Shown: piece after piece, positions 44,769 through 64,000 of the stretch
Layout of the letters: each line of letters opens with the position of its first letter
Position numbering within the stretch: position 1 is the stretch's first letter
NCBI GenBank assembly: GCA_038046365.1
Contig: JBBSWF010000020.1
Span: forward strand, 14,201-78,200
Length of the DNA: 64,000 nucleotides
Origin: Nanobdellota archaeon
GTDB lineage: Archaea; Nanobdellota; Nanobdellia; Woesearchaeales; JAGWAF01
Direction: 5' to 3'
Program-made: the position numbers and the translations under genes
The notes under the pieces: model-generated
What the model was told of the DNA's origin: nothing
What the model saw: the letters and a program-made list of their open reading frames with translations, nothing else
Databases searched by the model: none

Positions 44769-44770
44769 AC

Positions 44771-44887
44771 ATGACACTGGATATAATCATGCCGCTGCTG
44801 GACAAAGAATCACAAAAGAAAATCAAGGCAAAAATACTTATGATGATGGAATCGAGATACATGCGCAAGGAGAAGAAGAGAAAATGA
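44771..44887 (+). CDS. 38-aa micro-protein MTLDIIMPLLDKESQKKIKAKILMMMESRYMRKEKKRK. A diverged paralog exists at 54745..54861.
   Basis: Protein-level conservation with a second 38-aa ORF despite diverged DNA. It is ATGA-coupled to the downstream gene. Confidence 0.45.
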   Translation: MTLDIIMPLLDKESQKKIKAKILMMMESRYMRKEKKRK

Positions 44888-46705: not shown

Positions 46706-46713
46706 GCGAATAA

Positions 46714-47119
46714 ATGACGATCCTCTACATCGATACAAACATCCTCCTGAACGCCGCCTTAGAGGAAAAGAACCTGACCGGCAAAGACCTAGCGACCCCC
46801 GCCTCCCGCCTATTCCTCGAAGCGCTCACCTGCAAATACACACTCCTTATATCATCATGGACTATCAAAGAAATGATGAGAAAGATACCAATCGAACACA
46901 TCCGGTCAACGATGGCGATATTGAACCCAAAAATCAGACAATGCCCATATGACCAACAAGATGAAGCGTCAGCCCGCGCCAGATCAAAGGATAATTTTCC
47001 TGATGCATTACATATAATAATCGCCGAAAAAAAAGGCGGATTACATAATCACTCGAGATCTGCATGATTTTCTTAAGATTGGGACACGGATCCCGATAAG
47101 AACGCCGGAGTCACTTTAA
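46714..47119 (+). pseudogene. PIN-domain (VapC-like) gene interrupted by a +1 frameshift in an A8 homopolymer (47027–47034). The downstream frame restores the ...IITRDLHDF C-terminal PIN motif.
   Basis: N-terminal ILYIDTNILLNAAL (first acidic PIN residue). After the A-run the +1 frame reads DYIITRDLHDFLKIGTRIPIRTPESL and stops at 47117–47119. Confidence 0.55.
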
Positions 47120-48301: not shown

Positions 48302-48403
48302 TTATCTAAAAGTAGAGATTGGTTGTATGGATATAACGAAAAGATTAAATACTGACTCATATTTAACGAAGATGCGCATATACAACGCGCGGAGAAAACG
48401 AAG

Positions 48404-48595
48404 ATGCAAAAAATCATTTTGGGGGGCCTTGCAGGCTCAGGAATCGTTGCGACACTGATAATATCAGGAATCGGATTGTATGTGACTAACGTCACAAAGG
48501 AAATTGGTATGATCGCAATATCCGGCGGAGTGGGAATAGGAATCCTACTTGGAATCCTTGGAGTGATCGGTGTCCTGAAGCGGGTGGCAGGATAA
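48404..48595 (+). CDS. Small two-TM membrane protein.
   Basis: GGLAGSGIVATLIISGIGLYV and IGMIAISGGVGIGILLGILGVIGVL. Confidence 0.4.
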   Translation: MQKIILGGLAGSGIVATLIISGIGLYVTNVTKEIGMIAISGGVGIGILLGILGVIGVLKRVAG

Positions 48596-48891
48596 ACAAG
48601 AGAGGTCGCCATTAAAGAGAGGGGAGAATCATCCGGAATCGAGTTATCGACATTCTGTCGACAACTGAAATACCCTCAGCAGCGGTACCACAAAAAAGAC
48701 GAAAAAATAAAAAGCACCCCTCACGCTCCCGGATGGTTCAACGGCTTGTATATCAAAGGCCAACTCTTAAAAGCAGTAAGTCCTATTGCCACTCCAAGAT
48801 TTTCTAAAAAAGTGAGCGTGACAGGCAGCGTAAGATACCTCTTCAAGATAATTCTCCTTGTCCGAGGAGTTCGGACTACCAGAGTCGGCAC

Positions 48892-49233
48892 TTAAGGCGA
48901 TGGATCTCCATAACACACATGAAAATGAAGATGCTTTGAATCCTGATATTTTCCTAGGTTAGTAAGTATTCTACAGGATCCATGTTCATTGTTTACTTTC
49001 TTCGCGACCTGTTTGATTACTTCCAAGATCTCAATCACAAGGGGACTATCAGAAATAGTGAGAAGTGATTCGATATGTTCCTTTGGAACAACGACGATGT
49101 GAACAGGCCAGTGAGGCTTAGTATGGTAATATGCCAGAACATTGTCAGTCTCTAATATTTTATTAACCGGTGTTTTCCCACTGAACACTTCATCACAATA
49201 AAAATCATCAGTCATGGAATCCGTTATTCGCAT
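48892..49233 (-). CDS. HIT family hydrolase.
   Basis: Histidine triad HLHFHV, plus the HTKPHWPVHIVVVP segment. Confidence 0.65.
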   Translation of the reverse strand: MRITDSMTDDFYCDEVFSGKTPVNKILETDNVLAYYHTKPHWPVHIVVVPKEHIESLLTISDSPLVIEILEVIKQVAKKVNNEHGSCRILTNLGKYQDSKHLHFHVCYGDPSP

Positions 49234-49384
49234 TGATTTTTAAATATTGTGCAGGCCCATCTCCGTAGCCAGGAGAATTCTTTAAGTGAATCCCAGATGT
49301 GTTGAGAAGGATTTAGAGTTCGCCACAGAACAAACCCTCAAACAACTTATAAACAAGGATGCCCACCCCAATCACTGAAACGAC

Positions 49385-50218
49385 ATGGACCAGGAATCAG
49401 CTTTAGTGGTCTTCCAGGACAAGAGGATAAGGAGGACGTGGCAAGAAGGAGAATGGTGGTTCTCAATAGAAGATATAGTCTATGCGTTGACTGATTCTAA
49501 GGACCCAAAACAGTACATCCAGAAGATGAAGCAACGGGATGAGCCCCTATCCGAAGGGTGGGTACAGATTGTACATACCCTTCCTATGCAGACCGAAGGC
49601 GGCGTCCAACTGATGAACAGCGTAAATGTCAAAGGAGCGTTTAGGGTCATCCAGTCCATCCCATCTAGCAAAGCCGAACCATTCAAGATATGGCTTGCCA
49701 AAGTAGGATATGAGCGGGTCCAGGAGATCGAGAACCCGGAACTGGCACAGGAGAGGATGAAGGAACTCTACGAACAGAAAGGATACTCAAAAGAATGGAT
49801 CGAGAAGAGATTGAGAGGCATCGCAGTACGGCAGGAACTGACAGGCGAATGGAAACAGAGAGGAGCGGACGAGAACAAGGAGTATGCCATACTCACCAAT
49901 GAGATCAGCCAGGCGACCTTCGGAAAGACAGTCGATGAATACAAACAGCTCAAAGGCCTGAACAAAGAGAACCTGCGCGACCACATGGACGACCTTGAAC
50001 TGATATTCACGATGCTAGGGGAAAAGGTAACGACCGAGATCACAAAGAAAGACGACGCGCAAGGATTCCCTGAATGCAAAGACGCCGCGCACCGAGGCGG
50101 ACGGGTCGCAGGCAGCGCCAGAAAAGACGCCGAGAAAGAGATAGGCAGGGATATCTCGACACCAGAGAACTACCTCGACGCGCCAGAGAAAGAGAAAAGG
50201 AAGAGGATAGGGAAATAG
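49385..50218 (+). CDS. DinD / Bro-N-like (DNA-damage-inducible protein D family) protein.
   Basis: N-terminal FQDKRIRRTWQEGEWWFSIEDIVYALTD is a Bro-N-like pattern. The central region resembles E. coli DinD (for example GYSKEWIEKRLRGIAVRQELTGEWKQRGA). Confidence 0.5.
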   Translation: MDQESALVVFQDKRIRRTWQEGEWWFSIEDIVYALTDSKDPKQYIQKMKQRDEPLSEGWVQIVHTLPMQTEGGVQLMNSVNVKGAFRVIQSIPSSKAEPFKIWLAKVGYERVQEIENPELAQERMKELYEQKGYSKEWIEKRLRGIAVRQELTGEWKQRGADENKEYAILTNEISQATFGKTVDEYKQLKGLNKENLRDHMDDLELIFTMLGEKVTTEITKKDDAQGFPECKDAAHRGGRVAGSARKDAEKEIGRDISTPENYLDAPEKEKRKRIGK

Positions 50219-50448
50219 TGGATCCTACCCACAGATCATGGCGAGCATATCACAGAAAGTCATCTTCAATAATTAAGGGAAAGGATATTCTCATTCACGA
50301 GTTCTAGTGTTACAGGAGCCATATACACCTAGAAACCCCTATCTTTTAAATACCTTGCGCGGTAAAGCATCAAAAGACAATATGACTATCACCTAAGTGA
50401 TCACTTAATCGCTGAATAATAAGACCGAATAAATAGGAGGAAACCACA

Positions 50449-50610
50449 ATGGCAGCCACACCAAAAGACCAACAGAAGATACAACTAGACTATCGGATCG
50501 ACAGAGACGCATACAACCAGTTCGTCAAAGCATGCAGCGCCAAAGGATACGCCCCGCAAGTCGTAGTAGAGAGGTTGATGAAGAAGTATATAGAGACTGG
50601 GCAGATGTAG
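50449..50610 (+). CDS. 53-aa ribbon-helix-helix-like small protein preceded by a strong AGGAGG Shine-Dalgarno. It is not in the ORF track because it is under 60 aa.
   Basis: The translation MAATPKDQQKIQLDYRIDRDAYNQFVKACSAKGYAPQVVVERLMKKYIETGQM has a strand-helix-helix pattern. AGGAGG lies 9 nt upstream of the ATG. Confidence 0.4.
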   Translation: MAATPKDQQKIQLDYRIDRDAYNQFVKACSAKGYAPQVVVERLMKKYIETGQM

Positions 50611-50643
50611 TTTTACTCGAAAAGGGGACAATCGGGAGCCAAA

Positions 50644-50925
50644 ATGAAAATTGCAATCGACGGCAAGAGTTTGCACGATATCAAGATGAAGCTAAAGAGC
50701 AGCAATACCTCCACTACCCCCCTGATCTCCTACCCAGAAAATCGCATAAAAGCCAGCGTCAATAAGGAGATAGTGACACTGATGCTTCCTCCATTGCTGG
50801 CACTCGAATTATTCAGGTTAGGGGTTCTACAATCTAAAGAACTACGTTATATCAGTCAAACTCCAGGGAAAGGATTTGGGATCCTTCCGCTTCGAGGATT
50901 TAAGACATCCAGATCAGTTATATGA
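50644..50925 (+). CDS. Hypothetical 93-aa protein downstream of the RHH gene.
   Basis: Its ATG is 33 nt after the RHH stop and follows GGGAG. Confidence 0.3.
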   Translation: MKIAIDGKSLHDIKMKLKSSNTSTTPLISYPENRIKASVNKEIVTLMLPPLLALELFRLGVLQSKELRYISQTPGKGFGILPLRGFKTSRSVI

Positions 50926-51041
50926 CGACGGGCTTGTCGAGGTCATGCTCGCTAAGTACCAAAGGACATGAATGATGACCAAAATCAGGGCGGAGTGAGC
51001 GAACGAACATATTTATACATCCTAAACTGTCGGAGGGGCTA

Positions 51042-51794
51042 ATGGAATGCATACCAAAAGATAAGCTCAAAGAGATCGTGAATGAACAGGAATTATCTGA
51101 ACTGCTCCTATACCCCGCGATCTTCCCAAACGCTGAATTCATCCTCGAACATGAATTCCCGGAATATCGCGTGATTGACGCGTATTGCGTCAACCCTGAA
51201 TGCAAATGCGAAGAGGTAGCATTGTATTTCACGAAAAAGCAAGGCGATGAGCTTAAACACGAATTTTCCTTCGTGTTTGAATATATACATCATGACGTGC
51301 TCGCCTGTGACGATATCCCAGATCATGAAGCCGCCGAGATAATAAAAAAGATTCCCACTACAACAATTGACGATATCAAGAAGAGACGCGAGCAACTCAG
51401 ACTTGCTGTACTCGAAGAGATGTCGATCAAACTAGAGAGCCATAAAAACACAGCGAAAAGGAAATTAGGCCGTAATGAACTCTGCCATTGCGGCTCAGGC
51501 ATCAAGTACAAGAAATGCTGCCTGAAGATGGACATCGAGAAGAACGGCAAACCCATGATGATCCTGGACCCTGAATCAGGTGAGGAAGACAGCTTCTGGC
51601 AGAAAGGCTCGTTCGCCCAATCAGTCAGCAAGGAGGATATGGAGAGAAAAAACCGCACGATCCACATGAGCCATGATGAAGATATGGACTTCGACTGCAA
51701 GAAGTGCGACACTAAGATATCCGCGCACAACAAGGACTGGCATGACGGCATGTGCGACGAGTGCTTCGATAAAACCTACTTCAGGGACCGATAA
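51042..51794 (+). CDS. SEC-C motif (metal-binding) domain protein with a C-terminal zinc ribbon.
   Basis: NELCHCGSGIKYKKCC is the SEC-C motif. CKKCDTKISAHNKDWHDGMCDEC is the C-terminal zinc ribbon. Confidence 0.6.
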   Translation: MECIPKDKLKEIVNEQELSELLLYPAIFPNAEFILEHEFPEYRVIDAYCVNPECKCEEVALYFTKKQGDELKHEFSFVFEYIHHDVLACDDIPDHEAAEIIKKIPTTTIDDIKKRREQLRLAVLEEMSIKLESHKNTAKRKLGRNELCHCGSGIKYKKCCLKMDIEKNGKPMMILDPESGEEDSFWQKGSFAQSVSKEDMERKNRTIHMSHDEDMDFDCKKCDTKISAHNKDWHDGMCDECFDKTYFRDR

Positions 51795-51799
51795 ACAAG

Positions 51800-52213
51800 A
51801 TGGACATCCTGGAAAAAATCAGAAAAGTCGAGGCCTTGATCGAGCGCGCCGGGACAGAAGGCGAGAAGCAGTCAGCAATCCAGGCCCGAGAAAGGCTACT
51901 GAAGTCAAAAATTGATGAAGAGCTAGAATATACTATCCACATACAGGACATGTGGCATAAAAAGCTGTTTCTCGCAATCTGCCATAAGCACAATCTGAAA
52001 CCATATCGGTATCATAGACAGAAATACACCACTGCGATGGTGCGGATAAGCAAATCGTTTTTAGACACCATAGTCTGGCCTGAGTACCTTAGATTCGCTA
52101 AAATACTTGAAGAACTCGTCGATGAGATCACCGCAGAGGTCATCTCCAAAATCCACAAGGATGAAACCGAGACCGTGATAGATGGAGAACTGAGCGGGCC
52201 GGACAGCAACTAG
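51800..52213 (+). CDS. Hypothetical protein.
   Basis: Clean ORF 6 nt after the upstream stop. Confidence 0.35.
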   Translation: MDILEKIRKVEALIERAGTEGEKQSAIQARERLLKSKIDEELEYTIHIQDMWHKKLFLAICHKHNLKPYRYHRQKYTTAMVRISKSFLDTIVWPEYLRFAKILEELVDEITAEVISKIHKDETETVIDGELSGPDSN

Positions 52214-52223
52214 AGGGGACTCC

Positions 52224-53234
52224 ATGAACAAAGAAGAAGCATATGATTATGCATACCGCCTTTATGAAGATGGAAATAATTCTGAGGCGATTACCGTATT
52301 AGAAGGGCTTTGCCGCGAACATCCAGAATTTCTTGACGCATTGAATCTATACGCAGGCTGCCTTATCAATATCTCTCATTTCATAGACGCAACGAGAATA
52401 CTGATGAATGCTGAAAAAATAGACCCCGAAAGTCCGGAGATAAAATATAATCTGGGCTATGCCTTGCTATGCGCAGGCCGTGTCTCAGATGCGATGAGAT
52501 ACTTTGAAGAGTCGTTAAAGATGAACCCCCAGACAGAGGCCAAAAAGATGGCGGAACGCATGCTCAAGGAACGGCAAGACTTTGAAAAGAATATTGAGAA
52601 CAATTACCCAATCTCTTTGGAAGAAGAGTTTGAATGCTATGATAATTTCCTCAAGGCCCAGAGATTCCTATATTCAAAGAAAGAGGAAAAGGCCATTGAG
52701 ATCTACATGAAAATCCTAGAAAAGAAGCCGGATCATCCTGAAACGATCCATAATATCGGCACAGCTTACTTTAATCTGAGCCAGTATGAGAAGGCGCTTG
52801 AATTCTTTGAAAAATTGGGAAAGAAGGATTCATTAGCGCTCGCTAATCTCGCGATCACCTATTCGAAACTCGGCAATACAAGAAAAAAAGAAGAATGCCT
52901 AGAGATTCTCAGAAGAGAAAAAGACGATCCGTCAGTGAGGGATGCAGTAAGAATCATCACAGCCTTAATTGAGATTGGTGAACAATCCATCGCTAAGGAT
53001 ATCCTGAACAGACTCAGAAAAAAGACACAACATCCCCAACTTGAATTCTTGCATGCAGTGATACTGGCGAAAGAAGGCGATTGGAAGAACGCAAAGAATC
53101 TGTTTCGGAAGTTAAGCGATCTTTCAGATAGATGCATCGAATACTACGAAGCCACAGACCAGCTAAGCCAAGGCAAGATAACAGAATACGATTTTAAACC
53201 AGGTCTCATCTTTTGTGATATCCAATCAATCTAA
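52224..53234 (+). CDS. TPR repeat protein.
   Basis: Multiple 34-residue helical repeats (AxxxYxxxG...A patterns, for example NIGTAYFNLSQYEKALEFFEK). Confidence 0.6.
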   Translation: MNKEEAYDYAYRLYEDGNNSEAITVLEGLCREHPEFLDALNLYAGCLINISHFIDATRILMNAEKIDPESPEIKYNLGYALLCAGRVSDAMRYFEESLKMNPQTEAKKMAERMLKERQDFEKNIENNYPISLEEEFECYDNFLKAQRFLYSKKEEKAIEIYMKILEKKPDHPETIHNIGTAYFNLSQYEKALEFFEKLGKKDSLALANLAITYSKLGNTRKKEECLEILRREKDDPSVRDAVRIITALIEIGEQSIAKDILNRLRKKTQHPQLEFLHAVILAKEGDWKNAKNLFRKLSDLSDRCIEYYEATDQLSQGKITEYDFKPGLIFCDIQSI

Positions 53235-53246
53235 ACAGGTGGAACC

Positions 53247-54686
53247 ATGAAAATCGACGAGGTATACAGCGAGAGAGTCATCGAACGCGGCGAAGACTAC
53301 ATAGGCAATGTGAAATCATGCATCAAAGCGAACGGATCACTCTTCGCCGAAGTGCATGGAAGCCGCTTATACAAGACCAAAGTCAACCTGGCAAGCCTTG
53401 AAGGGGAATGCTCATGCCCCTACCAGCATAACTGCAAACACGCAGTCGCAGCATACATCTACCACAAGAAAGGGCACAGCGTCAACGCTGATGATTTCCT
53501 CAAAAACCTTGAAAAGCTCGACAAGAAAGAACTCATCCGGATCATCACGAACGTCCTGCCGGGCAATCCGGAATTGGCCACCGACTACGTCTTTAGGAAA
53601 AAGACCAGCTTTGAGTCATTAGTCGATGATCTAATCGAAAAATTCACAATAAGAAAGATGGATCAGATAGAGAAGAACCTCGACCGCCTCAATTTCGAAC
53701 AGCTCTATAATATACTGGAATTCATTGAGAAAGAGGCGGACACGATATTCGAAAACGCCTCCGATGAATTCGAAGGATACAACGGGTACGGATATGACGA
53801 TGAAGGCCAGTTCCTTGACGAATTCACCGAAAAAGTGACAGAAGAAGCCATGAAAAGAATAGACTCAAAAGAAAAGCTAAATGCCGCGATACACCAAAGA
53901 CTCCTCCGCGCGGAAATGATCAATCATGCCGAGCAATTCTACCACCGCAGAGACCAGATCAAGAGCCAGATCTCCCGGCAAGAATACTGCGATTTCCTGC
54001 TAAACTGCAAGAATCCTGACGTCAAAGAGCTCAAGGAGAGCATTGTACCTGAATCAATCGACCGCCTCCCGCGCCTACCACTGAAAAACCTCCATCTGGC
54101 AGAAAAGCTGGCCCCTCTCCTTAAGAATGATGATATCTATTTCATGATATCATACCAGAAAGAAGATCTCTTCGGGATGATCCGGCGTATAGACCGATTA
54201 GACCCACTCATAAGAAAATACCTGCCTATACGCGCATCCAAGATAGTTGATATGATGAAAAGAAAAAAGACTGCTGACAAGAAAACCATCCGTATCTTAT
54301 TCAATAGGAGACATCTTGAGGGCTACACTCCAAAACAGATAGAATACTTAGCCAAACAGGTAGAGAACACCACGATACTCCGGGATACTCTAGATATGAG
54401 CCGGAAGTTCTCAAATGCAATCCCGATAATCAACAGGTTGGCCCATCTCGGGATCGACATTAAAAAGATATTCCAAAAGGAAGACCTCCTGGAAACAAAG
54501 CATTGGACAGAGATCATTGAGATCATAAGATACATCAAGGACAATCTCGGAAAGGATTATCTCGCTAATTTCATCAAGACGCACAAAAGAAGCTTCGCTA
54601 CCTCATCAACACTCAAACACAACCTAAAAAAAGAAGGGATATGCATACAAGACAGAAAAGGAAAATTCGAGGTAGATATGACATGA
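53247..54686 (+). CDS. SWIM zinc-finger domain protein.
   Basis: CSCPYQHNCKHAVAAYIYH is the CxC...CxH SWIM signature. Confidence 0.6.
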   Translation: MKIDEVYSERVIERGEDYIGNVKSCIKANGSLFAEVHGSRLYKTKVNLASLEGECSCPYQHNCKHAVAAYIYHKKGHSVNADDFLKNLEKLDKKELIRIITNVLPGNPELATDYVFRKKTSFESLVDDLIEKFTIRKMDQIEKNLDRLNFEQLYNILEFIEKEADTIFENASDEFEGYNGYGYDDEGQFLDEFTEKVTEEAMKRIDSKEKLNAAIHQRLLRAEMINHAEQFYHRRDQIKSQISRQEYCDFLLNCKNPDVKELKESIVPESIDRLPRLPLKNLHLAEKLAPLLKNDDIYFMISYQKEDLFGMIRRIDRLDPLIRKYLPIRASKIVDMMKRKKTADKKTIRILFNRRHLEGYTPKQIEYLAKQVENTTILRDTLDMSRKFSNAIPIINRLAHLGIDIKKIFQKEDLLETKHWTEIIEIIRYIKDNLGKDYLANFIKTHKRSFATSSTLKHNLKKEGICIQDRKGKFEVDMT

Positions 54687-56888: not shown

Positions 56889-58727
56889 TCACCTTATCTT
56901 TGAAGTCATATCCCTCCAATAATCCCTAAGAGGAGCGCCTGAGCCTCCAGACGCCGGCGTCCTCGCAATAGCGACCATGCGCATCCGACCGTTAGATGGA
57001 TCATACACACAGTCATATCCTTTGAGGTTCGAAGGATCGAGACGATAGGCAAACAAGTCACACATGGTCTTTTGCGTGGCTGGATCGACGACAGCCACCC
57101 CATCGTAGGCCAGGGCAGTGACATCGATGAAACCATCGAAGAACACGTCTCTCTCAAGGACCCCGAAATAGTAACGGTTAGGACCGTGGAGGATGAACAA
57201 GCCGCTGAACTGGCTGATATTCGCAAGCGGATCCTGGAACTGCTTCCTTGAAGCAGTGTCCACAAAAGAGCGCAGATTAGCCATCGGCTGGGTGATCTGA
57301 GTCTCTGCTGACATCTTCAAGACAGGCTTTGACACAGGAGACGACAACGCCGCCGCGCCACTGGGCGTTGAAGAATAGGATGTCGATGAGATGATCGATT
57401 GCAGGCCATGATTGTACGCGAGCGCCTGACTCGGGCCCGGATTGGAGACAAAGAGGCCCAAGATGCTCTGCCACAGCGTAGCGTACCAAGCCTGCGAAGA
57501 GCAATCATGGAACCGGCCGTCATCGATCGCGGCAGAGTTGCATGTGGTCTCTTCGAGGCCCAAAGCCTTCAGGAAACTACGATCAGGATCATCAACAGGG
57601 ATATTGAGCGAAGTCCCGAAACCAGTCTTAACCCCGCCGATCCGGATCACACAGAAGTTATTGACGCAAGGGATGACCGCCCCGTCACGCACACAGCCGG
57701 CCTCGATAAAACTCTTCAGAGATCCGGCGCCAAGAGTCAGAGGATCGTAATCGACGAAGTTGAGAGCGTCTTTGTAATCACCACAGAACAGAGCATAATC
57801 ATTGGGAGACTGGATCTGGGCAGAGTCTATCATCTCAAGAGCCAGAGCCTTGGACCGGCTAGTCCAACTGCCTTCTATACACAAGTAATCCATGATATAC
57901 TGGCCGTCAGCCAAGCAGACAGGCTGACCAAGGGGATTGTCCTTTGAGGAGAAATACCGGCCTGGCAGGTAGTTGCTGGCCTCAGAACCTCTGGGGTTCC
58001 ACAAGCAATCAGTAGCGCGCGGACAGAATCCACGCCCGAAACGATCAGGAGTGTACTTGAGCGAAGTGGCCTGGCAGCATATCTTGTTACGGAAACTCGA
58101 GCCGCAGGCAGCGATGTGCGAGTCGACCGTGTCAGCCACAGCGCCCAAACAGACCTCACTCGAGCCGCACTGAGACCCGACCATCTCCACCCTGCATGTC
58201 AGTATCGAATTCTTTGATGAAAGACAAAGAGGGGACGGGTTGGGGATCGTCGCCGCCAAGCCAGGCAATAGCACATGATCGTCGTCAGTAGAGTAGGCAA
58301 GCAAGAACGGCTGCGCGAGATTCGACCCCCCGCATTGAGTGCTCAGCTCGCCTGAACCCGAGGCACAGCACATGGAGTAAGGATTGGCCTGCTTCAGATC
58401 CGTCTTGAAGATGTGAGATTCCGATGGATCGGACAACGCGTAGACAAATGTCTCTCCTGGGACGCAGCCGCCCTGGCGGAGAGCGCACGACAAGTCAGGC
58501 GCGGGATCACTCACGGCAAAACCCATGATGGCACTTGAGAAGGATCGACCGCTGATGGTAAATGGACGCGACGGGCCTGGATAGAATGAATCATCGATAC
58601 CTCCCCCTAGGACAGAGAGCACCGCGGAGATCGAGACGATGACCAGTATAGATACCATGAATAAGGTCAATCCAGAGATCTCTATATGTTCAGTCTTTGA
58701 ACACCCCTTGCTTCCTAGAGTAGCCAT
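56889..58727 (-). CDS. Cysteine-rich secreted/extracellular protein with an N-terminal signal anchor.
   Basis: N-terminal TM LTLFMVSILVIVSISAVLSVL and more than 25 Cys spread through a 612-aa sequence. No known motif. Confidence 0.5.
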   Translation of the reverse strand: MATLGSKGCSKTEHIEISGLTLFMVSILVIVSISAVLSVLGGGIDDSFYPGPSRPFTISGRSFSSAIMGFAVSDPAPDLSCALRQGGCVPGETFVYALSDPSESHIFKTDLKQANPYSMCCASGSGELSTQCGGSNLAQPFLLAYSTDDDHVLLPGLAATIPNPSPLCLSSKNSILTCRVEMVGSQCGSSEVCLGAVADTVDSHIAACGSSFRNKICCQATSLKYTPDRFGRGFCPRATDCLWNPRGSEASNYLPGRYFSSKDNPLGQPVCLADGQYIMDYLCIEGSWTSRSKALALEMIDSAQIQSPNDYALFCGDYKDALNFVDYDPLTLGAGSLKSFIEAGCVRDGAVIPCVNNFCVIRIGGVKTGFGTSLNIPVDDPDRSFLKALGLEETTCNSAAIDDGRFHDCSSQAWYATLWQSILGLFVSNPGPSQALAYNHGLQSIISSTSYSSTPSGAAALSSPVSKPVLKMSAETQITQPMANLRSFVDTASRKQFQDPLANISQFSGLFILHGPNRYYFGVLERDVFFDGFIDVTALAYDGVAVVDPATQKTMCDLFAYRLDPSNLKGYDCVYDPSNGRMRMVAIARTPASGGSGAPLRDYWRDMTSKIR

Positions 58728-59098: not shown

Positions 59099-59112
59099 GT
59101 TATATATATATT
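59099..59112 (+). promoter_or_regulatory. TATA box (ttatatatatattg) about 25–30 nt upstream of the GTG start of the first tail-fibre-like gene. Analogous boxes lie at about 60380–60400 and 62342–62355.
   Basis: Read from the sequence. Confidence 0.45.
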
Positions 59113-59133: not shown

Positions 59134-60294
59134 GTGAAAATAGTCATCAACTTAGACAAATGGCACGCATACGCCATAACCCTCCTCCTGACCATAATCG
59201 CAGGAGCATTCCTCGCAGCAGGAGCAGCCCCAGCAGGCGTATCGACACACCAGACACTATTCACAGACACGATAAAAGGGAAAAGCGGAGATAATGTAGC
59301 AGTGATGGGCAATGTGGGGATCGGGACCACCATGCCCCGGGCTAAACTCCATTTATACGCTCCGTCCTCCAATTCATTCATGGACATCGAGACCGCGGGA
59401 CCATACGCATCAGGATTACTTATAGGCGCCGCGACCAGCAACTCAATGAAAGAGGGCCAGATACAATACACAGACATCTTCAGGATAATCAATCGGCGCT
59501 TCCTGACAGACAACACAGACGGCGGCCGTGACATCATGACGTTCCAGCCTGAGGGCAATGTAGGGATCGGAACGACCAATCCATTGACAAGATTGCATAC
59601 TGAAGGACAACAGATATCGACATTCACCGGGACCGCGCGAGGATTACTCACTTTAAGCGCGCCATACAATGTAGGATATTACACGCCGCTGGATTTTCTA
59701 TACACCCCAGGAGCGTATCCCACAGCAAGAATCGCCGCTTATCATGACGGCGGCGGTTCAAAACTCGTATTCGGGACTTCATACAATTATGCCGCGGGCA
59801 TAACCACCACCGCCATGACAATAGATCAATACGGCAAAGTCGGCATCCTCCAGACAAATCCGCAGCGGACACTACAAGTAGGCGGCGACATATTGACAGA
59901 GGGGGATTTCTACGACGGAGGGATGCCTGCGGTGAACGGGGGATGGGACGTGTGGATGGAAACAGGCACAGGCAGATTCGGAACAGCTCCAGCTAGCAGC
60001 AGAAGATACAAAGAAAATATCGAAAATTCTACACTTGGGCTGAATGATGTCATGAGGTTAAGACCGGTGCTTTTCAACTACAAAAAGAGCTATGTGAATG
60101 ACAGCACAAGACACGCAGGCCTGATCGCGGAAGAAGTCAGCGAGGTCAGCCCGATGCTTGTGCAACTAAAAGACGGGCGGGTAGAGGACGTGAAATACAA
60201 AGAGATCACTCCTTTGCTAGTCAAAGCGATCCAAGAGCAGCAAGCGCAGATAAAGTCGCTGCAGAACAGGCTGGAAGAACTCGAGAAGAGATAG
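59134..60294 (+). CDS. Tail-fibre-like surface protein. It has an N-terminal hydrophobic signal/anchor, GNVGIGTTxP..KLH repeats and a C-terminal peptidase S74 / intramolecular chaperone (endosialidase-chaperone) domain.
   Basis: The C-terminus SSRRYKENIENSTLGLNDVMRLRPVLFNYKK...GLIAEEVSEVSPMLV...ITPLLVKAIQEQQAQIKSLQNRLEELE matches the S74 auto-cleaving chaperone signature (S-x-R-x-x-K-E-N-I ... LRPV.F.YK). Confidence 0.7.
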   Translation: MKIVINLDKWHAYAITLLLTIIAGAFLAAGAAPAGVSTHQTLFTDTIKGKSGDNVAVMGNVGIGTTMPRAKLHLYAPSSNSFMDIETAGPYASGLLIGAATSNSMKEGQIQYTDIFRIINRRFLTDNTDGGRDIMTFQPEGNVGIGTTNPLTRLHTEGQQISTFTGTARGLLTLSAPYNVGYYTPLDFLYTPGAYPTARIAAYHDGGGSKLVFGTSYNYAAGITTTAMTIDQYGKVGILQTNPQRTLQVGGDILTEGDFYDGGMPAVNGGWDVWMETGTGRFGTAPASSRRYKENIENSTLGLNDVMRLRPVLFNYKKSYVNDSTRHAGLIAEEVSEVSPMLVQLKDGRVEDVKYKEITPLLVKAIQEQQAQIKSLQNRLEELEKR

Positions 60295-60414
60295 CGACGA
60301 CAAAAAAAGGGATGCAAGACCAGATTTGACCGGGTAGAACCAGATTTGAGACTATCCTCACCGACCAAGAGGACACTCGCAAAGTTATTATAGTGATAAT
60401 CCGGAAGAAAACAT

Positions 60415-62286
60415 GTGAAAATAGTCATCAACTTAGACAAATGGCACGCATACGCCATAACCCTCCTCCTGACCATAATCGCAGGAGCATTCCTCGCAGC
60501 AGGAGCAGCCCCAGCAGGCGTATCGACACACCAGACACTATTCACAGACCTGATAAAAGGGAAAAGCGGCTCTTCAGTTGCTATGATGGACAAGGTAGGC
60601 ATCGGGACGACGAACCCCACAACACCCCTCGATGTCGCAGGATCCGCAAAAGCGACCCGGCTCATATCCCAAGGCAACACTGGCGCGGATCTTATCGTGA
60701 TTAGACCCGGCGATGACCTCAACCCGGCGTATCCAGCGATAACATTAGGAAACGCGGCATGGACCGCCTGGCCATTCCAAGTCCTGAAGAACGGAAACAT
60801 CATCACTGCCGGCAAGATGGGGATCGGAACGACAACCCCCGAATCCCAATTGGATGTCAGAACAATCACATCACAACCGATGGCATACTTCGAAGGAAAA
60901 GACCTGCGAGCCCAAGCGCAATACCCGACCAATCCAGACCCAAGTTCCTACATATTCCTAAAAGACCTGGACAGCACAGCGTTGTGGGGACTCCGAGTCG
61001 GCAACACAGGAGACTTCGCCATACACCAAGCGAGCGTGGCCGACCGGATGACCATATTGAACAATGGAAATGTCGGCATAGGCACGACCAGCCCGACCGC
61101 AAAACTGGATGTCGCAGGAACGGCAATACTCGATTACCTAGCAGTCGACCCACAGGACACAAACATCGAAGGCGGAGAGATCCAGCTTCGAGGCGCCGGG
61201 AGCAATGGAGGATTCCAGATAGACAATTACGCAGGCAACGCAAGGATACACACACTCGCATCAGGAAAAACATTCCAAGTGCTAGGCGGAGGGATCTACG
61301 CAGAAGGGCCCATACAATCCACCAGCGGAGGGATCAAATTCCCAGACGGGACAGTACAGAACACCGCAGCAGCAGGCGGATTCTCGCTGCCACCTGGCGT
61401 CACGATACAAGGCACAGCAGGAAGGAACTATTTCCGCGACACTGAAAACGCCGGAGACCTCCGAGTCGGCGCCGCATGGGGAATGCCAGGAATATACGCA
61501 GAGACCGGAGCGGGGGTTTTGGGAGGAGCAGGAGGCGCGAGCCTGCAGAACAACGCACTAGTCGTGAAAACCGACGGCAAAGTAGGCATCGGAACGACAA
61601 CCCCTGCGTACAAACTCGACGTGAACGGTGACATGATCAACGGCTGGTTCAGATCAAGAGGACAAACAGGATGGTACAGCCAGGATTACGGCGGCGGATG
61701 GTACATGATCGACCCATGGTGGATCCGCTCAGTCGGCTCAAAAAACGTCTGGGTAGACCAAGTGATAGGATCAAACGCAGGACTCACAGTAGGATACGGC
61801 GGGCAAGGACCTCCGAGCACAGGAGCTATAATCGCGGGAAATGTGGGGATAGGGACATCTGGACCATTGTCTAAACTTCATGTCTACAGCACAGGCAATA
61901 CCATCTCGGGAGTGCAAGGAGGGGTCCAGTCATTATGGGGCATGGAAGCATTGTCTAACACCAACGCGATGCAGATAGGCAACCTCAATGGCGCGGATCT
62001 GAATCCATCTATCTTTCTAAATAGTGGAGGGAATGTCGGAATCGGCACGACAGCACCCACACAAAAGCTCGACGTAGCCGGAAATGTCAAGACAAACGGC
62101 ATCGTATTCTCTGACGGCACGACACAGACCACTAAAGCGATAACCGGCATCTGGATAACCCCCGAAGGCACACACGTCCCCGGCGGAACCGGATGCCCTT
62201 CAGGATATACCCAAATAGCAAGCTTCGCCGACTGCGGACAGGCTAATTGTTACGGCAACCAACTGGTGTGCGTGAAATACGGATAG
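60415..62286 (+). CDS. Tail-fibre-like surface protein paralog with six GNVGIGTTxP-x-KLDV repeats and a Cys-containing C-terminal domain.
   Basis: The first 136 nt are identical to gene 59134. Repeats include KVGIGTTNPTTPLDV and GNVGIGTTSPTAKLDV. Confidence 0.65.
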   Translation: MKIVINLDKWHAYAITLLLTIIAGAFLAAGAAPAGVSTHQTLFTDLIKGKSGSSVAMMDKVGIGTTNPTTPLDVAGSAKATRLISQGNTGADLIVIRPGDDLNPAYPAITLGNAAWTAWPFQVLKNGNIITAGKMGIGTTTPESQLDVRTITSQPMAYFEGKDLRAQAQYPTNPDPSSYIFLKDLDSTALWGLRVGNTGDFAIHQASVADRMTILNNGNVGIGTTSPTAKLDVAGTAILDYLAVDPQDTNIEGGEIQLRGAGSNGGFQIDNYAGNARIHTLASGKTFQVLGGGIYAEGPIQSTSGGIKFPDGTVQNTAAAGGFSLPPGVTIQGTAGRNYFRDTENAGDLRVGAAWGMPGIYAETGAGVLGGAGGASLQNNALVVKTDGKVGIGTTTPAYKLDVNGDMINGWFRSRGQTGWYSQDYGGGWYMIDPWWIRSVGSKNVWVDQVIGSNAGLTVGYGGQGPPSTGAIIAGNVGIGTSGPLSKLHVYSTGNTISGVQGGVQSLWGMEALSNTNAMQIGNLNGADLNPSIFLNSGGNVGIGTTAPTQKLDVAGNVKTNGIVFSDGTTQTTKAITGIWITPEGTHVPGGTGCPSGYTQIASFADCGQANCYGNQLVCVKYG

Positions 62287-62374
62287 ATAACTGAAATCAC
62301 TGCGAGATCGAGATGATTCCACGATCTCCAAAATCTAAGAAGATTTTTATAGTCACTACCCGGGAAAATGCGCC

Positions 62375-63463
62375 ATGAAGATCCTAATAAATCTAGAGAA
62401 ATACCACGTCTACGTGATAGTCCTGGCACTCGTGCTTCTCGTAGGCGCATTCCTCGCAGCCGGAGCCGCACCCGCTGGGATATCGACACACCAGACGCTA
62501 TTCACTGACACGATTAAGAGCAAAAGCGGATCTTCCATCGCGATGATGGACAAGGTAGGCGTCTGGACCGCCACGCCACAGTATCCATTAGATGTGAACG
62601 GGGCATTCGCCGCCAGGGACAACGTAGAGATAGGCCATATTCCCGGCGTATCAGGAGGGATATTCATAACAAAGAGCTCCACTTACGGCAAGCCCGCGGT
62701 CCAAGCAGTGACACCAGCGTTTGGATTCGATCAACTCGCATTGAACCCAGGAGGAGGCAACGTAGGAATCGGGACAGCTTCTCCAACAGAGAAGCTTGAT
62801 GTGGCCGGAAATATCAAAGCCACTGGATTCTGCATAGACACCAACTGCAAGACAAGCTTTTCAGGCGGAGGCGGCCTGCTGGCGATCCGATCATATGCCT
62901 CAAGCGCCACCTGGACAAAACCATCAGGACTCGCATATATAATAGTCGATGTCTGGGGAGCAGGCGGAGGAGGAGGCGGAAGCAATCCAGGCAGTGCTGA
63001 TGGAGGAGCAGGCACATCATCATTATTTGGTCCTTATGTATCAGCAAGTGGCGGCGAAGGCGGAAGTGCCGTCGGAGGATATGGCGGCGGTCGCGGCGGT
63101 GTAGGCACTAATGGAGATATCAATCTCATAGGCCAATCTGGTCAGTTAGCCTGGGCTGGCGGCGGAGGCATGGGAGGATCTTCACCCAATGGCGGCGCTG
63201 GCGGCCAAAGTCGATGGTGTTCATACTGCAATTCACAGGATATGGGTATAGTTCCAGGCGGTGGAGGAGCCGGAGACTCCAATATGGGTTCCCAAGGCGC
63301 TCCGGGCGGCGGCGCAGGAGGATATTCAAAGAAAAGAATAGACGCTAACGCACTGACTGCAACTGTGCCAATCACAATAGGTGATGGCGGCGCAGGAGGC
63401 AGCGGCCACGATGTCGGTGGCATAGGCGCCAATGGAATGGTTGTTGTCTATGAGTATGGTTGA
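62375..63463 (+). CDS. Tail-fibre-like surface protein paralog with a Gly-rich C-terminal domain.
   Basis: The N-terminal protein sequence is conserved with the two upstream paralogs (different codons). It has one GNVGIGTASPTEKLDV repeat. The C-terminus is about 45% Gly. Confidence 0.6.
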   Translation: MKILINLEKYHVYVIVLALVLLVGAFLAAGAAPAGISTHQTLFTDTIKSKSGSSIAMMDKVGVWTATPQYPLDVNGAFAARDNVEIGHIPGVSGGIFITKSSTYGKPAVQAVTPAFGFDQLALNPGGGNVGIGTASPTEKLDVAGNIKATGFCIDTNCKTSFSGGGGLLAIRSYASSATWTKPSGLAYIIVDVWGAGGGGGGSNPGSADGGAGTSSLFGPYVSASGGEGGSAVGGYGGGRGGVGTNGDINLIGQSGQLAWAGGGGMGGSSPNGGAGGQSRWCSYCNSQDMGIVPGGGGAGDSNMGSQGAPGGGAGGYSKKRIDANALTATVPITIGDGGAGGSGHDVGGIGANGMVVVYEYG

Positions 63464-63601: not shown

Positions 63602-64000
63602 ATGAACCTCAAGAAAACACTCGTGACAATTGTTGCCACAGCGATGCTGTACGCCGGAGCGCCAGGAATGGCAGAGGCGTACAGACCCGTTAGGGGGAGG
63701 ACACTAGAGACATACGTTGAGACCAAAGACAAGACCGACACACCAGCCAAGATATGGGCATTCTTCAAGACCAGCATCAAGTACGCAAGCGACAAAGAAG
63801 GGAAGTTCAAGAACCACAAAGGAGAGGAAAGGACGCTTGGCAATGACTACATGCAAGACCCGATCGACACATACCTTCGAGGCAAAGGCGACTGCGATGA
63901 CTACGCTGCGCTGGCGCACGACTGGCTCAAAGAAGCAGGATATGAAACAAAGATGATCTCATACTTTGCCAAGGGAAAGAAGACCGGGCACGCGATATGC
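63602..64000 (+). CDS. Secreted transglutaminase-like cysteine peptidase domain protein, 3'-truncated by the window end.
   Basis: Signal MNLKKTLVTIVATAMLYAGAPGMAEA and a GKGDCDDYAALAHDWL catalytic-Cys motif. The ORF has no stop before nt 64000. Confidence 0.5.
   Translation, partial: MNLKKTLVTIVATAMLYAGAPGMAEAYRPVRGRTLETYVETKDKTDTPAKIWAFFKTSIKYASDKEGKFKNHKGEERTLGNDYMQDPIDTYLRGKGDCDDYAALAHDWLKEAGYETKMISYFAKGKKTGHAIC

What the first reader, a model, noticed from the sequence alone, without database searches (positions are those of the whole stretch)
59134..63463. Three tandem tail-fibre-like paralogs sharing an N-terminal anchor module; one retains an S74 intramolecular-chaperone domain
All three begin with a nearly identical roughly 50-aa N-terminus (MKIVINLDKWHAYAITLLLTIIAGAFLAAGAAPAGVSTHQTLFTD...). 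They carry GNVGIGTTxP-x-KLDV beta-helix repeats typical of phage tail fibres and tail-spikes. The C-termini differ: an S74 auto-cleaving chaperone (SSRRYKENI...LRPVLFNYK), a Cys-containing domain and a Gly-rich domain. No capsid, portal or terminase genes are nearby, and each gene has its own TATA box. They look like host-encoded surface fibres or adhesins with swappable tips rather than a prophage.
Basis: partly seen in the sequence, partly recalled or inferred. Interest (0 to 1): 0.6.

Follow-up and report, generated by a model that had tools for sequence, protein, structure and literature searches.

The report
Archaeal surface fibres with swappable tips
A tiny symbiotic (DPANN) archaeon from groundwater carries three neighbouring genes for phage-tail-fibre-like surface fibres that share one leader/anchor segment but end in three different tips; they are archaeal relatives of the fibres that the predatory bacterium Bdellovibrio uses to recognise prey, so they are good candidates for how such archaea recognise their hosts.

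Summary
Three + strand genes (59134-60294, 60415-62286, 62375-63463) share a 58-aa N-terminal module. g1 and g2 are 100% identical over the first 135 nt; g3 is about 70% identical. Together they carry 11 copies of the VGIGTTxPxxKLxV motif and have three unrelated C-termini. g1 has a Peptidase_S74 domain (E 4.8e-10) with the Ser288/Lys293 dyad.

The contig is from a Hainich groundwater Nanoarchaeota (DPANN) MAG. No virion genes lie in the 64-kb window or in the 10 kb downstream.

The closest solved structures, by sequence and by fold, are the Bdellovibrio MAT (mosaic adhesive trimer) prey-recognition fibres, which also come in S74 and non-S74 forms.

The N-module is a rare, undescribed family: 37 clusters among 1.84 billion representatives. 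It sits at the N-terminus of archaeal proteins with highly variable, often Cys-rich tips, in housekeeping contexts. A gene for an uncharacterised Cys-rich protein (here 56889-58727, minus strand) lies next to it in six of the seven other loci examined. Related genomes hold different fibre sets in the same slot ([g2] or [g3,g2]), and g2 is mosaic.

Best reading: cell-encoded, secreted or membrane-anchored trimeric adhesin fibres with exchangeable tips, a new archaeal variant of the MAT kind. Surface location, trimerisation and host binding are inferred, not shown.

The parts
59134..60294 (+). g1, 386 aa. S74-type fibre: N-module, three capping-loop motifs (aa 59, 141, 234), a beta-rich domain (aa 157-233) and a C-terminal S74 intramolecular chaperone.
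   Evidence: ORF. Pfam Peptidase_S74 E 4.8e-10. PHROG tail-fibre families. AF2 model mean pLDDT 73.8. Foldseek top hits are Bdellovibrio MAT fibres. NCBI name 'tail fiber domain-containing protein [Nanoarchaeota archaeon]'.
59995..60291 (+). g1 S74 intramolecular-chaperone/auto-protease domain (aa 288-386). Predicted cleavage at Ser288, with Lys293 as the general base.
   Evidence: Pfam match aa 288-343. S288 and K293 are conserved in 58 of 67 aligned homologues. pLDDT is 93-98. Aligns to the SDRRIK motif of phage S16 gp37, PDB 6F45.
60415..62286 (+). g2, 623 aa. Non-S74 fibre: N-module, six capping-loop motifs (aa 59, 133, 218, 388, 475, 539), a Shufflon_N-like segment (aa 400-447) and a C-terminal knob with four Cys.
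   Evidence: ORF. PDB 8OND (Bd2133 MAT fibre) E 2e-12. PHROG 9942 tail fibre E 2e-21. Pfam Shufflon_N 25.6 bits, below the 27.5 cutoff. Cys at 594, 607, 612 and 619.
62375..63463 (+). g3, 362 aa. Non-S74 fibre: N-module, two capping-loop motifs (aa 59, 128) and a Gly-rich C-terminal domain (about aa 163-362).
   Evidence: ORF. PHROG 863 E 5.9e-20. Pfam Gly_rich_2 23 bits, below the 24.3 cutoff. Homologues carry PF21722, including a uvMED phage protein.
59134..59307 (+). N-module of g1 (aa 1-58): conserved n-region MKIVINLDKWH, a hydrophobic helix, then the motif STHQTLFTDTIKGKSG.
   Evidence: Alignments A1, A3 and A5. Hydropathy maximum at aa 14-32. Helix 10-26 in the model. The profile finds only 37 clusters in 1.84e9 proteins.
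60415..60588 (+). N-module of g2. Its first 135 nt (60415-60549) are 100% identical to 59134-59268.
62375..62548 (+). N-module of g3: 71% aa and about 70% nt identity to g1 and g2.
59100..59112 (+). TATA-like box (TTATATATATATT) centred 28 nt upstream of the g1 GTG start, preceded by AAAG (BRE-like). Implies a leaderless or near-leaderless mRNA.
   Evidence: sequence; pattern rarity
60385..60393 (+). TATA-like box (TTATTATAG) centred 26 nt upstream of the g2 GTG start, preceded by CAAAG.
   Evidence: sequence
62344..62352 (+). TATA-like box (TTTTTATAG) centred 27 nt upstream of the g3 ATG start, preceded by AAGAAGA.
   Evidence: sequence; pattern rarity
56889..58727 (-). Divergently transcribed gene for a 612-aa Cys-rich protein with an N-terminal hydrophobic anchor and the motif DSHIAACGSSFRNKICC. 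Candidate partner of the fibres.
   Evidence: No Pfam, PHROG, NCBIfam or PDB match. Orthologues sit next to the fibre slot in L005 and L007. The homologous domain lies inside or beside N-module gene clusters in L009 (BLASTP 1e-8), L006, L010 and L012. The motif occurs only once in the 64-kb window.
63602..64000 (+). Conserved downstream flank of the fibre slot: a DUF553/transglutaminase-core-like gene that runs off the window.
   Evidence: Gene calls in L001 and L005. 84% nt identity to L005.

Best explanation
The three genes encode cell-surface fibre adhesins of a DPANN (Nanoarchaeota/Woesearchaeota-type) archaeon. They are archaeal relatives of the Bdellovibrio MAT (mosaic adhesive trimer) fibres, which themselves share their building blocks with phage tail fibres.

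Proposed mechanism:
1. Each gene is transcribed from its own TATA/BRE-type promoter as a leaderless mRNA.
2. The shared N-module takes the protein across the membrane. Its hydrophobic helix acts as a Sec signal peptide or an uncleaved signal anchor.
3. The conserved stretch that follows, (S/T)HxTLFTDxIxGKSG, holds the fibre base at the cell envelope. It may do so by docking onto the Cys-rich membrane protein encoded next door.
4. The body folds as a trimeric beta-helical shaft punctuated by VGIGTTxPxxKL capping loops.
5. The C-terminal tips differ and set binding specificity.
   - In g1, the S74 intramolecular chaperone drives trimer folding and then cuts itself off at Ser288 (Ser288/Lys293 dyad), exposing a Bd3182-like beta-helix tip.
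   - g2 ends in a small four-Cys knob.
   - g3 ends in a Gly-rich domain of a type also found in phage fibre proteins.
6. The identical 5' ends act as recombination handles. Cassettes are duplicated, lost, reordered and exchanged between lineages, which diversifies what the cell can bind. The most plausible target is the surface of host or partner cells of this episymbiont.

Shown here: gene structure, domain homologies, catalytic residues, the N-module family, cellular context and locus variability.
Inferred: export, trimerisation, auto-cleavage, envelope docking and host binding.
For: Organism and context.
- g1 is deposited as a Nanoarchaeota MAG protein from Hainich groundwater.
- The window and the 10 kb downstream hold metabolic, restriction-modification and regulator genes and no virion genes.

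Fibre nature.
- 11 capping-loop motifs.
- g2 vs Bd2133 (8OND) E 2e-12, and g1 vs 8OND E 2e-4.
- The 17 best Foldseek PDB matches to the g1 model (E from 7e-8 to 1.8e-3) are Bdellovibrio MAT fibres, apart from three chains of the MyRF ICA domain (ranks 11, 13, 16).
- 373 viral S74 fibre models match at E<=1e-3.
- PHROG tail-fibre hits for all three proteins.

S74 domain. Pfam hit above cutoff; S288 and K293 conserved in 58 of 67 homologues; pLDDT 93-98.

MAT parallels. S74 and non-S74 subclasses, a capping-loop motif, a constant N-terminus and swapped tips are described in PMC10769870.

Export.
- Single hydrophobic segment at aa 10-32, predicted helical.
- A family member in L006 has a plain Sec-type leader, MKRIIIFFTVVLLLAAFISA|TGY..AHDTLYADNI.
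- A VKOR (disulfide-forming) gene sits beside a Cys-rich family member.

N-module as a reusable handle. 37 clusters in 1.84e9 proteins, nearly all at the N-terminus, with unrelated C-termini.

Cellular contexts of family members. EF-1alpha/S10, EF-2/L7Ae/S28e/proteasome and FtsZ/RNase P/DNA ligase.

Cassette dynamics.
- 135 nt of perfect g1/g2 identity, against about 35% aa identity elsewhere in the proteins.
- The slot holds [g1,g2,g3] here, [g2] in L005, and [g3, g2-like...] in L007.
- The g2 5' 1.2 kb is 95% identical to L005, while the flanks are 82-84% identical.
- A second tandem array of N-module fibres occurs in L009.
Against: - No experiment or expression data. Surface location, trimerisation, auto-cleavage and any ligand are all inferred.
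- Only monomers could be modelled. The g2 model is poor (mean pLDDT 56.7) and the tips of g2 and g3 remain structurally undefined.
- The fibres are short (about 250-590 mature residues, against about 1,000 in Bdellovibrio MATs) and lack the roughly 130-aa conserved N-domain that defines MATs. The three proteins diverge after about aa 75.
- Whether the hydrophobic segment is cleaved or stays as an anchor cannot be decided with these tools.
- The host-recognition role rests on analogy and on the DPANN lifestyle. Homologues of the shaft are also common in free-living bacteria.
- The link to the Cys-rich neighbour is gene-neighbourhood evidence from seven loci only.
Confidence: 0.62

Rival explanations
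1. The genes are the receptor-binding module of an integrated or decayed archaeal virus, or of a phage-tail-like particle (tailocin/eCIS). They are kept because the particle is still made or was recently inactivated.
For: All three proteins hit PHROG tail-fibre families. 373 viral S74 fibre models match the g1 fold. A Bro-N gene with a very strong PHROG hit (E 7e-82) and a low-GC island lie 5-20 kb upstream. Viruses of DPANN archaea are poorly known, so their structural genes could go unrecognised.
Against: - No capsid, portal, terminase, sheath, tube, baseplate or integrase in the 64-kb window or the 10 kb downstream.
- The fibre genes have the GC content of the core genome (0.52), not that of the island.
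- Each protein has an N-terminal signal/anchor, which virion fibres lack.
- The slot is flanked by the same genes in relatives that are 78-84% identical.
- N-module proteins sit among housekeeping genes in several archaeal lineages.
- No N-module and no g1 relative was found in 2.9 million IMG/VR contigs, although this was a pattern search of limited sensitivity.
Confidence: 0.07
2. The proteins are adhesins associated with type IV pili. On this reading the N-module is a pilin-like segment that inserts into, or caps, an archaeal type IV pilus. The variable C-termini would then act like the PilV tip adhesins of shufflon plasmids.
For: - In L006, N-module fibres lie in one same-strand cluster with 4-6 pilins that carry class III signal peptides (KRGQ|A.., KKG|F..), next to T2SSF x2 and T2SSE.
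- L010 has two pilin-like genes two genes downstream of an N-module gene.
- g2 has a weak Shufflon_N (PilV constant region) match, and many g2 homologues carry PF04917.
- The MAT paper itself raises a possible interplay with type IV pili.
Against: - The N-module lacks the [KR][GAS] prepilin-peptidase site before the hydrophobic stretch. It has ..DKWH/..EKKH instead.
- A regex scan found no plausible class III leader in the window, and none of the scanned window ORFs gave a T2SSE/F or pilin match.
- One family member has an ordinary Sec-type leader.
- The Shufflon_N match is internal (aa 400-447) and below Pfam's cutoff.
Confidence: 0.13
3. They are tailspike-like surface enzymes (glycan depolymerases) or structural envelope or S-layer-associated proteins with no role in partner recognition.
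For: S74 chaperones were first described on endosialidase tailspikes. Beta-helix bodies often carry glycanase sites. One PHROG hit is annotated hyaluronidase (E 1.9e-6), and a Streptomyces hyaluronidase appears among weak fold matches.
Against: No catalytic-domain family is detected in Pfam or NCBIfam. The bodies are short and dominated by capping-loop repeats, as in MAT shafts. Tip hypervariability and cassette turnover fit recognition better than a housekeeping structural role.
Confidence: 0.08

Closest known systems
Bdellovibrio bacteriovorus MAT (mosaic adhesive trimer) fibres: Bd3182 (S74 type); Bd2133, Bd1334 and Bd2439 (non-S74 types). PMC10769870; PDB 8ONC, 8OND, 8OML, 8ONF.
   Same: - Cell-encoded, secreted, phage-fibre-like proteins.
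- The same capping-loop motif (GNVGIGTxxPxxKLxV).
- Direct sequence matches (g2 vs 8OND E 2e-12), and these are the top fold matches for g1.
- A family split into S74-terminated and non-S74 members.
- A constant N-terminal part and exchanged C-terminal tips ('tip swapping').
- The owner is an organism that must recognise other cells.
   Different: - Archaeal, not bacterial.
- Fibres are one quarter to two thirds as long.
- The constant part is a 58-aa leader plus short motif, not a roughly 130-aa beta-rich domain after a signal peptide.
- The genes are tandem, with a perfectly identical 135-nt 5' end.
- They sit next to a conserved Cys-rich partner gene.
- No localisation, structure or ligand data exist here.
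Phage tail fibres and tailspikes with a C-terminal S74 intramolecular chaperone: K1F endosialidase (PDB 3GW6), T5 pb1 (4UW7/4UW8), S16 gp37 (6F45), and cyanophage S74 fibres.
   Same: The S74 domain with its Ser-Lys dyad. Beta-helical shaft modules. Hits to many PHROG tail-fibre families. The g1 model matches Synechococcus phage S-B28 S74 protein at E 1.2e-19.
   Different: The phage proteins have an N-terminus that binds the virion and no signal peptide. They are encoded in virion modules, and no such genes are present here. Only g1 has the S74 domain.
Shufflon PilV tip adhesins of IncI plasmids (Pfam Shufflon_N, PF04917)
   Same: The concept of a constant N-terminal region joined to alternative C-terminal segments that set partner specificity. 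g2 and many of its homologues share a segment with the PilV constant region.
   Different: PilV variation comes from site-specific DNA inversion by the Rci recombinase within one gene. Here there are separate tandem genes in direct orientation, each with its own promoter, and no recombinase or inverted repeats. The Pfam match is below cutoff.
MyRF (myelin regulatory factor) ICA domain, PDB 7DC3
   Same: An S74-type trimerising, self-cleaving domain preceded by a capping-loop-like motif. It is a fold match to g1 (E 1.4e-4).
   Different: It is a eukaryotic membrane-bound transcription factor with an unrelated function and architecture.

Membership tests
Peptidase_S74 / intramolecular chaperone auto-processing domain (g1 only) | Match to the Pfam PF13884 profile above the gathering score | tested here: met
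   E 4.8e-10, 40 bits against a cutoff of 22, covering profile positions 1-57 of 58.
Peptidase_S74 / intramolecular chaperone auto-processing domain (g1 only) | Catalytic Ser and Lys five residues apart (the S-D/S-x-x-x-K motif) | tested here: met
   S288-S-R-R-Y-K293. It aligns with SDRRIK of PDB 6F45. S and K are conserved in 58 of 67 homologues. The +1 position is S in 37 and D in 19.
Peptidase_S74 / intramolecular chaperone auto-processing domain (g1 only) | C-terminal helical/coiled-coil chaperone fold | tested here: met
   The AF2 model has pLDDT 93-98 over aa 290-386 and a terminal helix at 355-385. Fold matches to MyRF ICA and the K1F IMC.
Peptidase_S74 / intramolecular chaperone auto-processing domain (g1 only) | Trimer-dependent autoproteolysis that releases the chaperone | not testable with these tools
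   Needs recombinant expression of wild type against S288A.
MAT (mosaic adhesive trimer) fibre family of Bdellovibrio | Beta-helical fibre body with the capping-loop motif (V-G-x-G-x-x-x-P-x-x-x-L) | tested here: met
   11 motifs. Sequence hits to Bd2133 and Bd3182 chains. MAT fibres are the top Foldseek matches.
MAT (mosaic adhesive trimer) fibre family of Bdellovibrio | Signal peptide, meaning a secreted, cell-encoded protein outside a phage context | tested here: met
   A hydrophobic N-terminal segment in all three proteins. No virion genes nearby. Whether the segment is cleaved was not determined.
MAT (mosaic adhesive trimer) fibre family of Bdellovibrio | Conserved beta-rich domain of about 130 aa directly after the signal peptide (present in all 21 MATs, PMC10769870) | tested here: not met
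   The three paralogues share only about 25-40 aa after the hydrophobic segment. The first capping loop starts at aa 59, and similarity is lost after about aa 75. No direct comparison with a Bdellovibrio N-domain sequence was possible, because none was available.
MAT (mosaic adhesive trimer) fibre family of Bdellovibrio | Alternative C-terminal tips: S74 or diverse non-S74 domains | tested here: met
   g1 has S74, g2 a four-Cys knob and g3 a Gly-rich domain.
MAT (mosaic adhesive trimer) fibre family of Bdellovibrio | Trimeric assembly, surface display and binding to the envelope of another cell | not testable with these tools
   Only monomer prediction is offered. There are no localisation or binding data.
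Prophage or virion tail-fibre module | Embedded among virion structural or packaging genes (capsid, portal, terminase, tail, baseplate) | tested here: not met
   Pfam and PHROG scans of most window ORFs of at least 150 aa, plus the genes called in 10 kb downstream, found none. The only phage-like gene is a Bro-N gene 9 kb upstream.
Archaeal type IV pilins (class III signal peptide) | Short charged leader ending in [KR][GAS] immediately before the hydrophobic helix (the PibD/FlaK/EppA site) | tested here: not met
   g1-g3 read ...LDKWH|AYAITLLL and family members read ...EKKH|LY. Genuine pilins in L006 and L010 show KRGQ|, KKG| and KRG|. A regex scan of the window found no plausible pilin.
Gly_rich_2 (PF21722) domain (g3) | Match to the Pfam profile above the gathering score | tested here: inconclusive
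   23.0 bits against a cutoff of 24.3. However, PHROG 863 hits at E 5.9e-20, and the homologue search returns many PF21722 proteins.
Shufflon_N (PF04917) / PilV constant region (g2) | Match to the Pfam profile above the gathering score, N-terminal pilin segment, and shufflon inversion repeats with the Rci recombinase | tested here: not met
   25.6 bits against a cutoff of 27.5, and only profile positions 222-271 of 324 are covered, at an internal location. No inverted repeats of note.

The most novel reading that the evidence does not exclude
DPANN archaea possess a dedicated, previously undescribed surface-display system made of two parts:
1. a conserved leader/anchor module, MKIxINIEKKHxY - helix - (S/T)HxTLFTDxIxGKSG;
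2. a co-encoded Cys-rich 'DSH...NKICC' membrane protein, sometimes within type IV pilus loci, that serves as the dock.

Interchangeable receptor-binding tips are mounted on this system. They include MAT/phage-fibre modules captured from bacteria or viruses. Recombination at the identical 5' handles reshuffles the cassettes and so sets and shifts the host range of these episymbionts. This would be the archaeal counterpart of prey recognition by Bdellovibrio fibres and of host-range switching by phage tail fibres.
Probability: 0.3. Interest if true: 0.78.

Novelty: new variant of a known kind. Interest (0 to 1): 0.56.

Why it matters
How DPANN archaea find and attach to their hosts is an open question. 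The abstract of a 2024 cryo-tomography paper on a DPANN co-culture says the molecular details of host recognition remain unknown, and the authors saw fibre-like 'antennae' with bulbous, phage-fibre-like tips, though these were on the host cell (PMC11329633).

This locus supplies concrete candidate molecules for that role:
- they are homologous to the only cellular fibres shown to mediate cell-to-cell recognition by a predator (PMC10769870);
- they come with a recognisable sequence handle (the N-module) that can be used to mine DPANN genomes;
- the auto-processing step can be tested directly (S288A);
- the slot varies between relatives, so fibre content could be correlated with host identity in metagenomes.

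It also shows that the fibre/S74 module toolkit shared by phages and bacteria has been taken up by archaeal cells with a different anchoring solution.

Tried and rejected
- NCBIfam scan of g1-g3 and the Cys-rich neighbour: no family.
- Genome-contig scan with the three-sequence N-module alignment: 131 pattern matches, none confirmed. A nine-sequence alignment gave only two loci.
- Viral contigs and JGI metagenome contigs: no N-module by pattern. These pattern scans are strict, so absence is weak evidence.
- The AF2 monomer model of g2 was poor (mean pLDDT 56.7) and was not used for fold search.
- Diversity-generating retroelement or shufflon-type variation: no reverse transcriptase, no template/variable repeat pair and no meaningful inverted repeats in 55-64 kb. 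Rejected.
- Class III (pilin) signal peptide in the N-module: rejected on the cleavage motif. A looser link with pilus loci is kept as a rival.
- The small genes upstream of the Woesearchaeota g1 homologue P0002 were checked for pilins. They are secreted HExxH-like proteins and unrelated.
- Cluster look-up for organism names of N-module proteins gave no names.
- Literature searches linking DPANN with S74 or tail fibres found no description of such fibres in archaea. The library is limited to open-access papers.
- Pfam/PHROG coverage of the window is incomplete. A few ORFs of at least 150 aa (3482-3967 and 35641-36270 not in Pfam; 30564-31025, 31336-31860 and 32619-33074 in neither library) and all ORFs shorter than 150 aa were not scanned.
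- Transcription terminators between the genes: no clear oligo-T tracts after g1 or g2. Independent transcription is suggested by the promoters, but read-through cannot be excluded.

Full report
**1. What is in the sequence**

The three + strand ORFs are exactly as reported: g1 59134-60294 (386 aa), g2 60415-62286 (623 aa) and g3 62375-63463 (362 aa).

They share an N-terminal module.
- g1 and g2 are 100% identical in DNA over the first 135 nt of the CDS. Identity then collapses, and the upstream DNA is unrelated.
- tblastn finds only these three copies in the 64-kb window.

A 16-aa motif, G(N/K)VGIGTTxPxxKL(D/H)V, occurs 3, 6 and 2 times in g1, g2 and g3. It also appears as DNA repeat families.

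The C-termini are unrelated.
- g1 has a Pfam Peptidase_S74 domain (E 4.8e-10, 40 bits against a cutoff of 22).
- g2 ends in a segment with four Cys. It also has an internal, sub-threshold Shufflon_N match.
- g3 ends in a domain that is 33% glycine. This domain hits PHROG 863 (E 5.9e-20) and falls just below cutoff for Pfam Gly_rich_2. Its homologues carry PF21722 and include an uncultured marine phage protein.

Each start codon is preceded by an AT-rich TATA-like box centred at -26 to -28 with a purine-rich BRE-like stretch. The core pattern is rare in this 52% GC window: 10 hits on the + strand. This fits archaeal promoters driving leaderless mRNAs. No clear oligo-T terminators follow g1 or g2, so read-through is not excluded.

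**2. Organism and context**

The same DNA is found in contigs of up to 189 kb from Hainich groundwater metagenomes, at 99.9-100% identity. NCBI holds g1 as 'MAG: tail fiber domain-containing protein [Nanoarchaeota archaeon]'.

The window encodes:
- metabolic genes and a 4603-aa subtilase/beta-helix/hydrolase giant protein;
- a type I restriction-modification system in a low-GC stretch;
- a Bro-N gene, and TPR, SWIM and PD40 proteins.

The 10 kb beyond the window encodes DUF553/transglutaminase-like, NUDIX, PEP-utilizer and AsnC-type genes. PHROG and Pfam scans found no capsid, portal, terminase, tail or integrase gene. The fibre genes have the GC content of the core genome.

**3. What the proteins resemble**

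Against PDB sequences, g2 matches Bdellovibrio Bd2133 (8OND, E 2e-12). g1 matches Bd2133 and the S74 end of phage S16 gp37 (6F45).

The AF2 model of g1 has mean pLDDT 73.8. The S74 part scores 93-98, and aa 10-26 form a helix. By Foldseek its best PDB matches are all Bdellovibrio MAT fibres (Bd1334, Bd3182, Bd2133, Bd2439), then the MyRF ICA domain, then more weakly the K1F chaperone. Against predicted viral structures, 373 S74 fibre proteins match; the best is from a Synechococcus phage at E 1.2e-19.

The MAT paper (PMC10769870) describes 21 cell-encoded fibres in Bdellovibrio.
- Thirteen end in S74 (SDxxxK) and eight do not.
- They have capping loops with a motif equivalent to the one repeated here.
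- They have an invariant N-terminal part and exchanged tips.
- They are located on the predator surface, and one of them binds prey glycans.

g1 has S288-S-R-R-Y-K293. Ser and Lys are conserved in 58 of 67 aligned homologues, and the +1 residue is more often S than D in this set.

Homologues of the shafts number in the thousands. By the names available, they occur in DPANN, CPR bacteria, Omnitrophota and many ordinary bacteria. The shaft and S74 toolkit is therefore widespread and already annotated.

**4. The N-module is the distinctive part**

A profile of the 58-aa module, searched against 1.84 billion representative proteins, found only 37 clusters at E<=1e-3. In almost all of them the match is at residue 1.

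The family consensus is MKIxINIEKKHxY - about 20 hydrophobic residues - (A)TGYxxGxx(S)HxTLFTDTIxGKSGxxVxVxD. His39 and Leu42 are invariant and Asp45 nearly so.

The C-terminal parts are extremely diverse: small Cys-rich domains, fibre repeats, and one S74 end.

One relative (L006 3525-5552) has an ordinary Sec-type leader, MKRIIIFFTVVLLLAAFISA, followed by TGY..AHDTLYADNI. This suggests that the hydrophobic part is an export signal and that the conserved motif is extracellular. Whether the segment is cleaved or kept as an anchor cannot be settled here. It does not have the [KR][GAS] site of archaeal pilins, whereas real pilins in L006 and L010 do.

Family members sit among archaeal housekeeping genes:
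- EF-1alpha and S10 in a Woesearchaeota MAG (L008);
- EF-2, L7Ae, S28e, proteasome and aCPSF1 (L012);
- FtsZ, RNase P p30 and DNA ligase (L010).

None was found in IMG/VR by pattern search.

**5. A conserved neighbour**

The divergently transcribed gene at 56889-58727 encodes a 612-aa Cys-rich protein with an N-terminal hydrophobic anchor. It has no match in Pfam, PHROG, NCBIfam or the PDB.

Its motif D(S/G/A)H...(K)(I/L/V)CC occurs once in the 64-kb window. It also occurs within about 3.5 kb of N-module genes in L005, L007, L009, L006, L010 and L012.
- The L009 protein aligns at E 1e-8.
- The L012 neighbour shows the same three-fold repeat.
- In L012 and L013 a VKOR gene lies beside the N-module gene.
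- In L006 and L010, pilin-like genes and pilus assembly genes are adjacent.

This neighbourhood evidence suggests a partner, possibly the dock for the fibre base. It comes from only seven loci.

**6. The slot is variable**

In a relative whose flanking genes are 82-84% identical in nucleotide sequence (L005), the slot between the Cys-rich gene and the DUF553 gene holds only a g2 allele. In another relative (L007, 78-83%), it holds a g3 orthologue followed by a g2-like gene.

The first 1.2 kb of g2 is 95% identical to L005, far above the flanks. The 3' part is 79-84% identical and contains an indel. A different genome (L009) has its own tandem array of at least three N-module fibres, with a Cys-rich gene inside the array.

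Together with the 135-nt perfect identity between g1 and g2, this indicates gene conversion and cassette gain, loss and exchange through the shared 5' handle. No inversion system or diversity-generating retroelement is present.

**7. Verdict**

The genes encode cell-encoded, exported fibre proteins built from the phage/MAT fibre toolkit, on a DPANN archaeon, with three alternative tips. One of them is matured by an S74 chaperone-protease.

They work like MAT fibres. They are not strict members of that family as defined, because the roughly 130-aa N-domain is replaced by a short, archaeon-specific module.

The shaft and S74 annotation is known. New here are the archaeal setting, the N-module family, its Cys-rich neighbour and the variable slot.

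Function in host recognition is a reasoned inference from homology and lifestyle, not a result.

Noticed in passing
window 10556-24367 (+): Single 4603-aa ORF with two subtilase (Peptidase_S8, E 2.9e-84) regions, three right-handed beta-helix regions and an alpha/beta-hydrolase domain. It is a giant multi-enzyme, probably surface, protein of the kind reported for DPANN archaea.
   Followed up: partly
window 38435-54686: Low-GC stretch (0.38-0.47) holding a type I restriction-modification system (HsdR, HsdM, a Schlafen/AlbA_2-HATPase gene, HsdS), a Bro-N protein with a very strong PHROG match (phrog_15286, E 7e-82), and SEC-C, TPR and SWIM proteins. In the relative L005 the UDG gene lies about 3 kb from the PD40 gene. 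Here the two are 21 kb apart (UDG at 33727-34425, PD40 at 55176), so this looks like an inserted defence/mobile island.
   Followed up: partly
window 56889-58727 (-); L009 1564-2289; L012 9086-10009; L006 12390-16343: Uncharacterised Cys-rich domain with a roughly three-fold repeat ending in D(S/A/G)H...NK(I/L)CC. It has no Pfam family and recurs beside N-module genes in several archaeal genomes. Its fold and role are unknown.
   Followed up: partly
L006 1746-21140 (Nanoarchaeota GCA_034722435.1): A same-strand cluster that mixes class III signal-peptide pilins, three N-module or fibre genes, and large MopE-repeat/Cys-rich proteins, next to two T2SSF genes and a T2SSE gene. This suggests that fibres and type IV pili may be co-deployed in some DPANN archaea.
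   Followed up: partly
L012 7254-7634 and L013 18-398: A VKOR (disulfide-bond-forming) gene lies directly upstream of a Cys-rich N-module gene in two independent contigs. This is consistent with extracellular disulfide-bonded tips.
   Followed up: no
L009 (CAYHWL010000064.1): A contig with a tandem array of N-module fibres is labelled 'uncultured Methanosarcinales archaeon'. Every other member with an organism label is Nanoarchaeota or Woesearchaeota, so this may be a mis-binned contig, or the family may reach beyond DPANN.
   Followed up: no
window 26732-27421 (+): A stand-alone Peptidase_C39 (bacteriocin-processing type) domain protein, with no adjacent ABC transporter among the ORFs scanned.
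   Followed up: no
L014 4461-7483 (-), Woesearchaeota GCA_016211195.1: Five tandem paralogous small secreted proteins with an HE(F/L)xHAYD motif (putative metalloprotease-like) lie just upstream of the closest g1 homologue, P0002.
   Followed up: no
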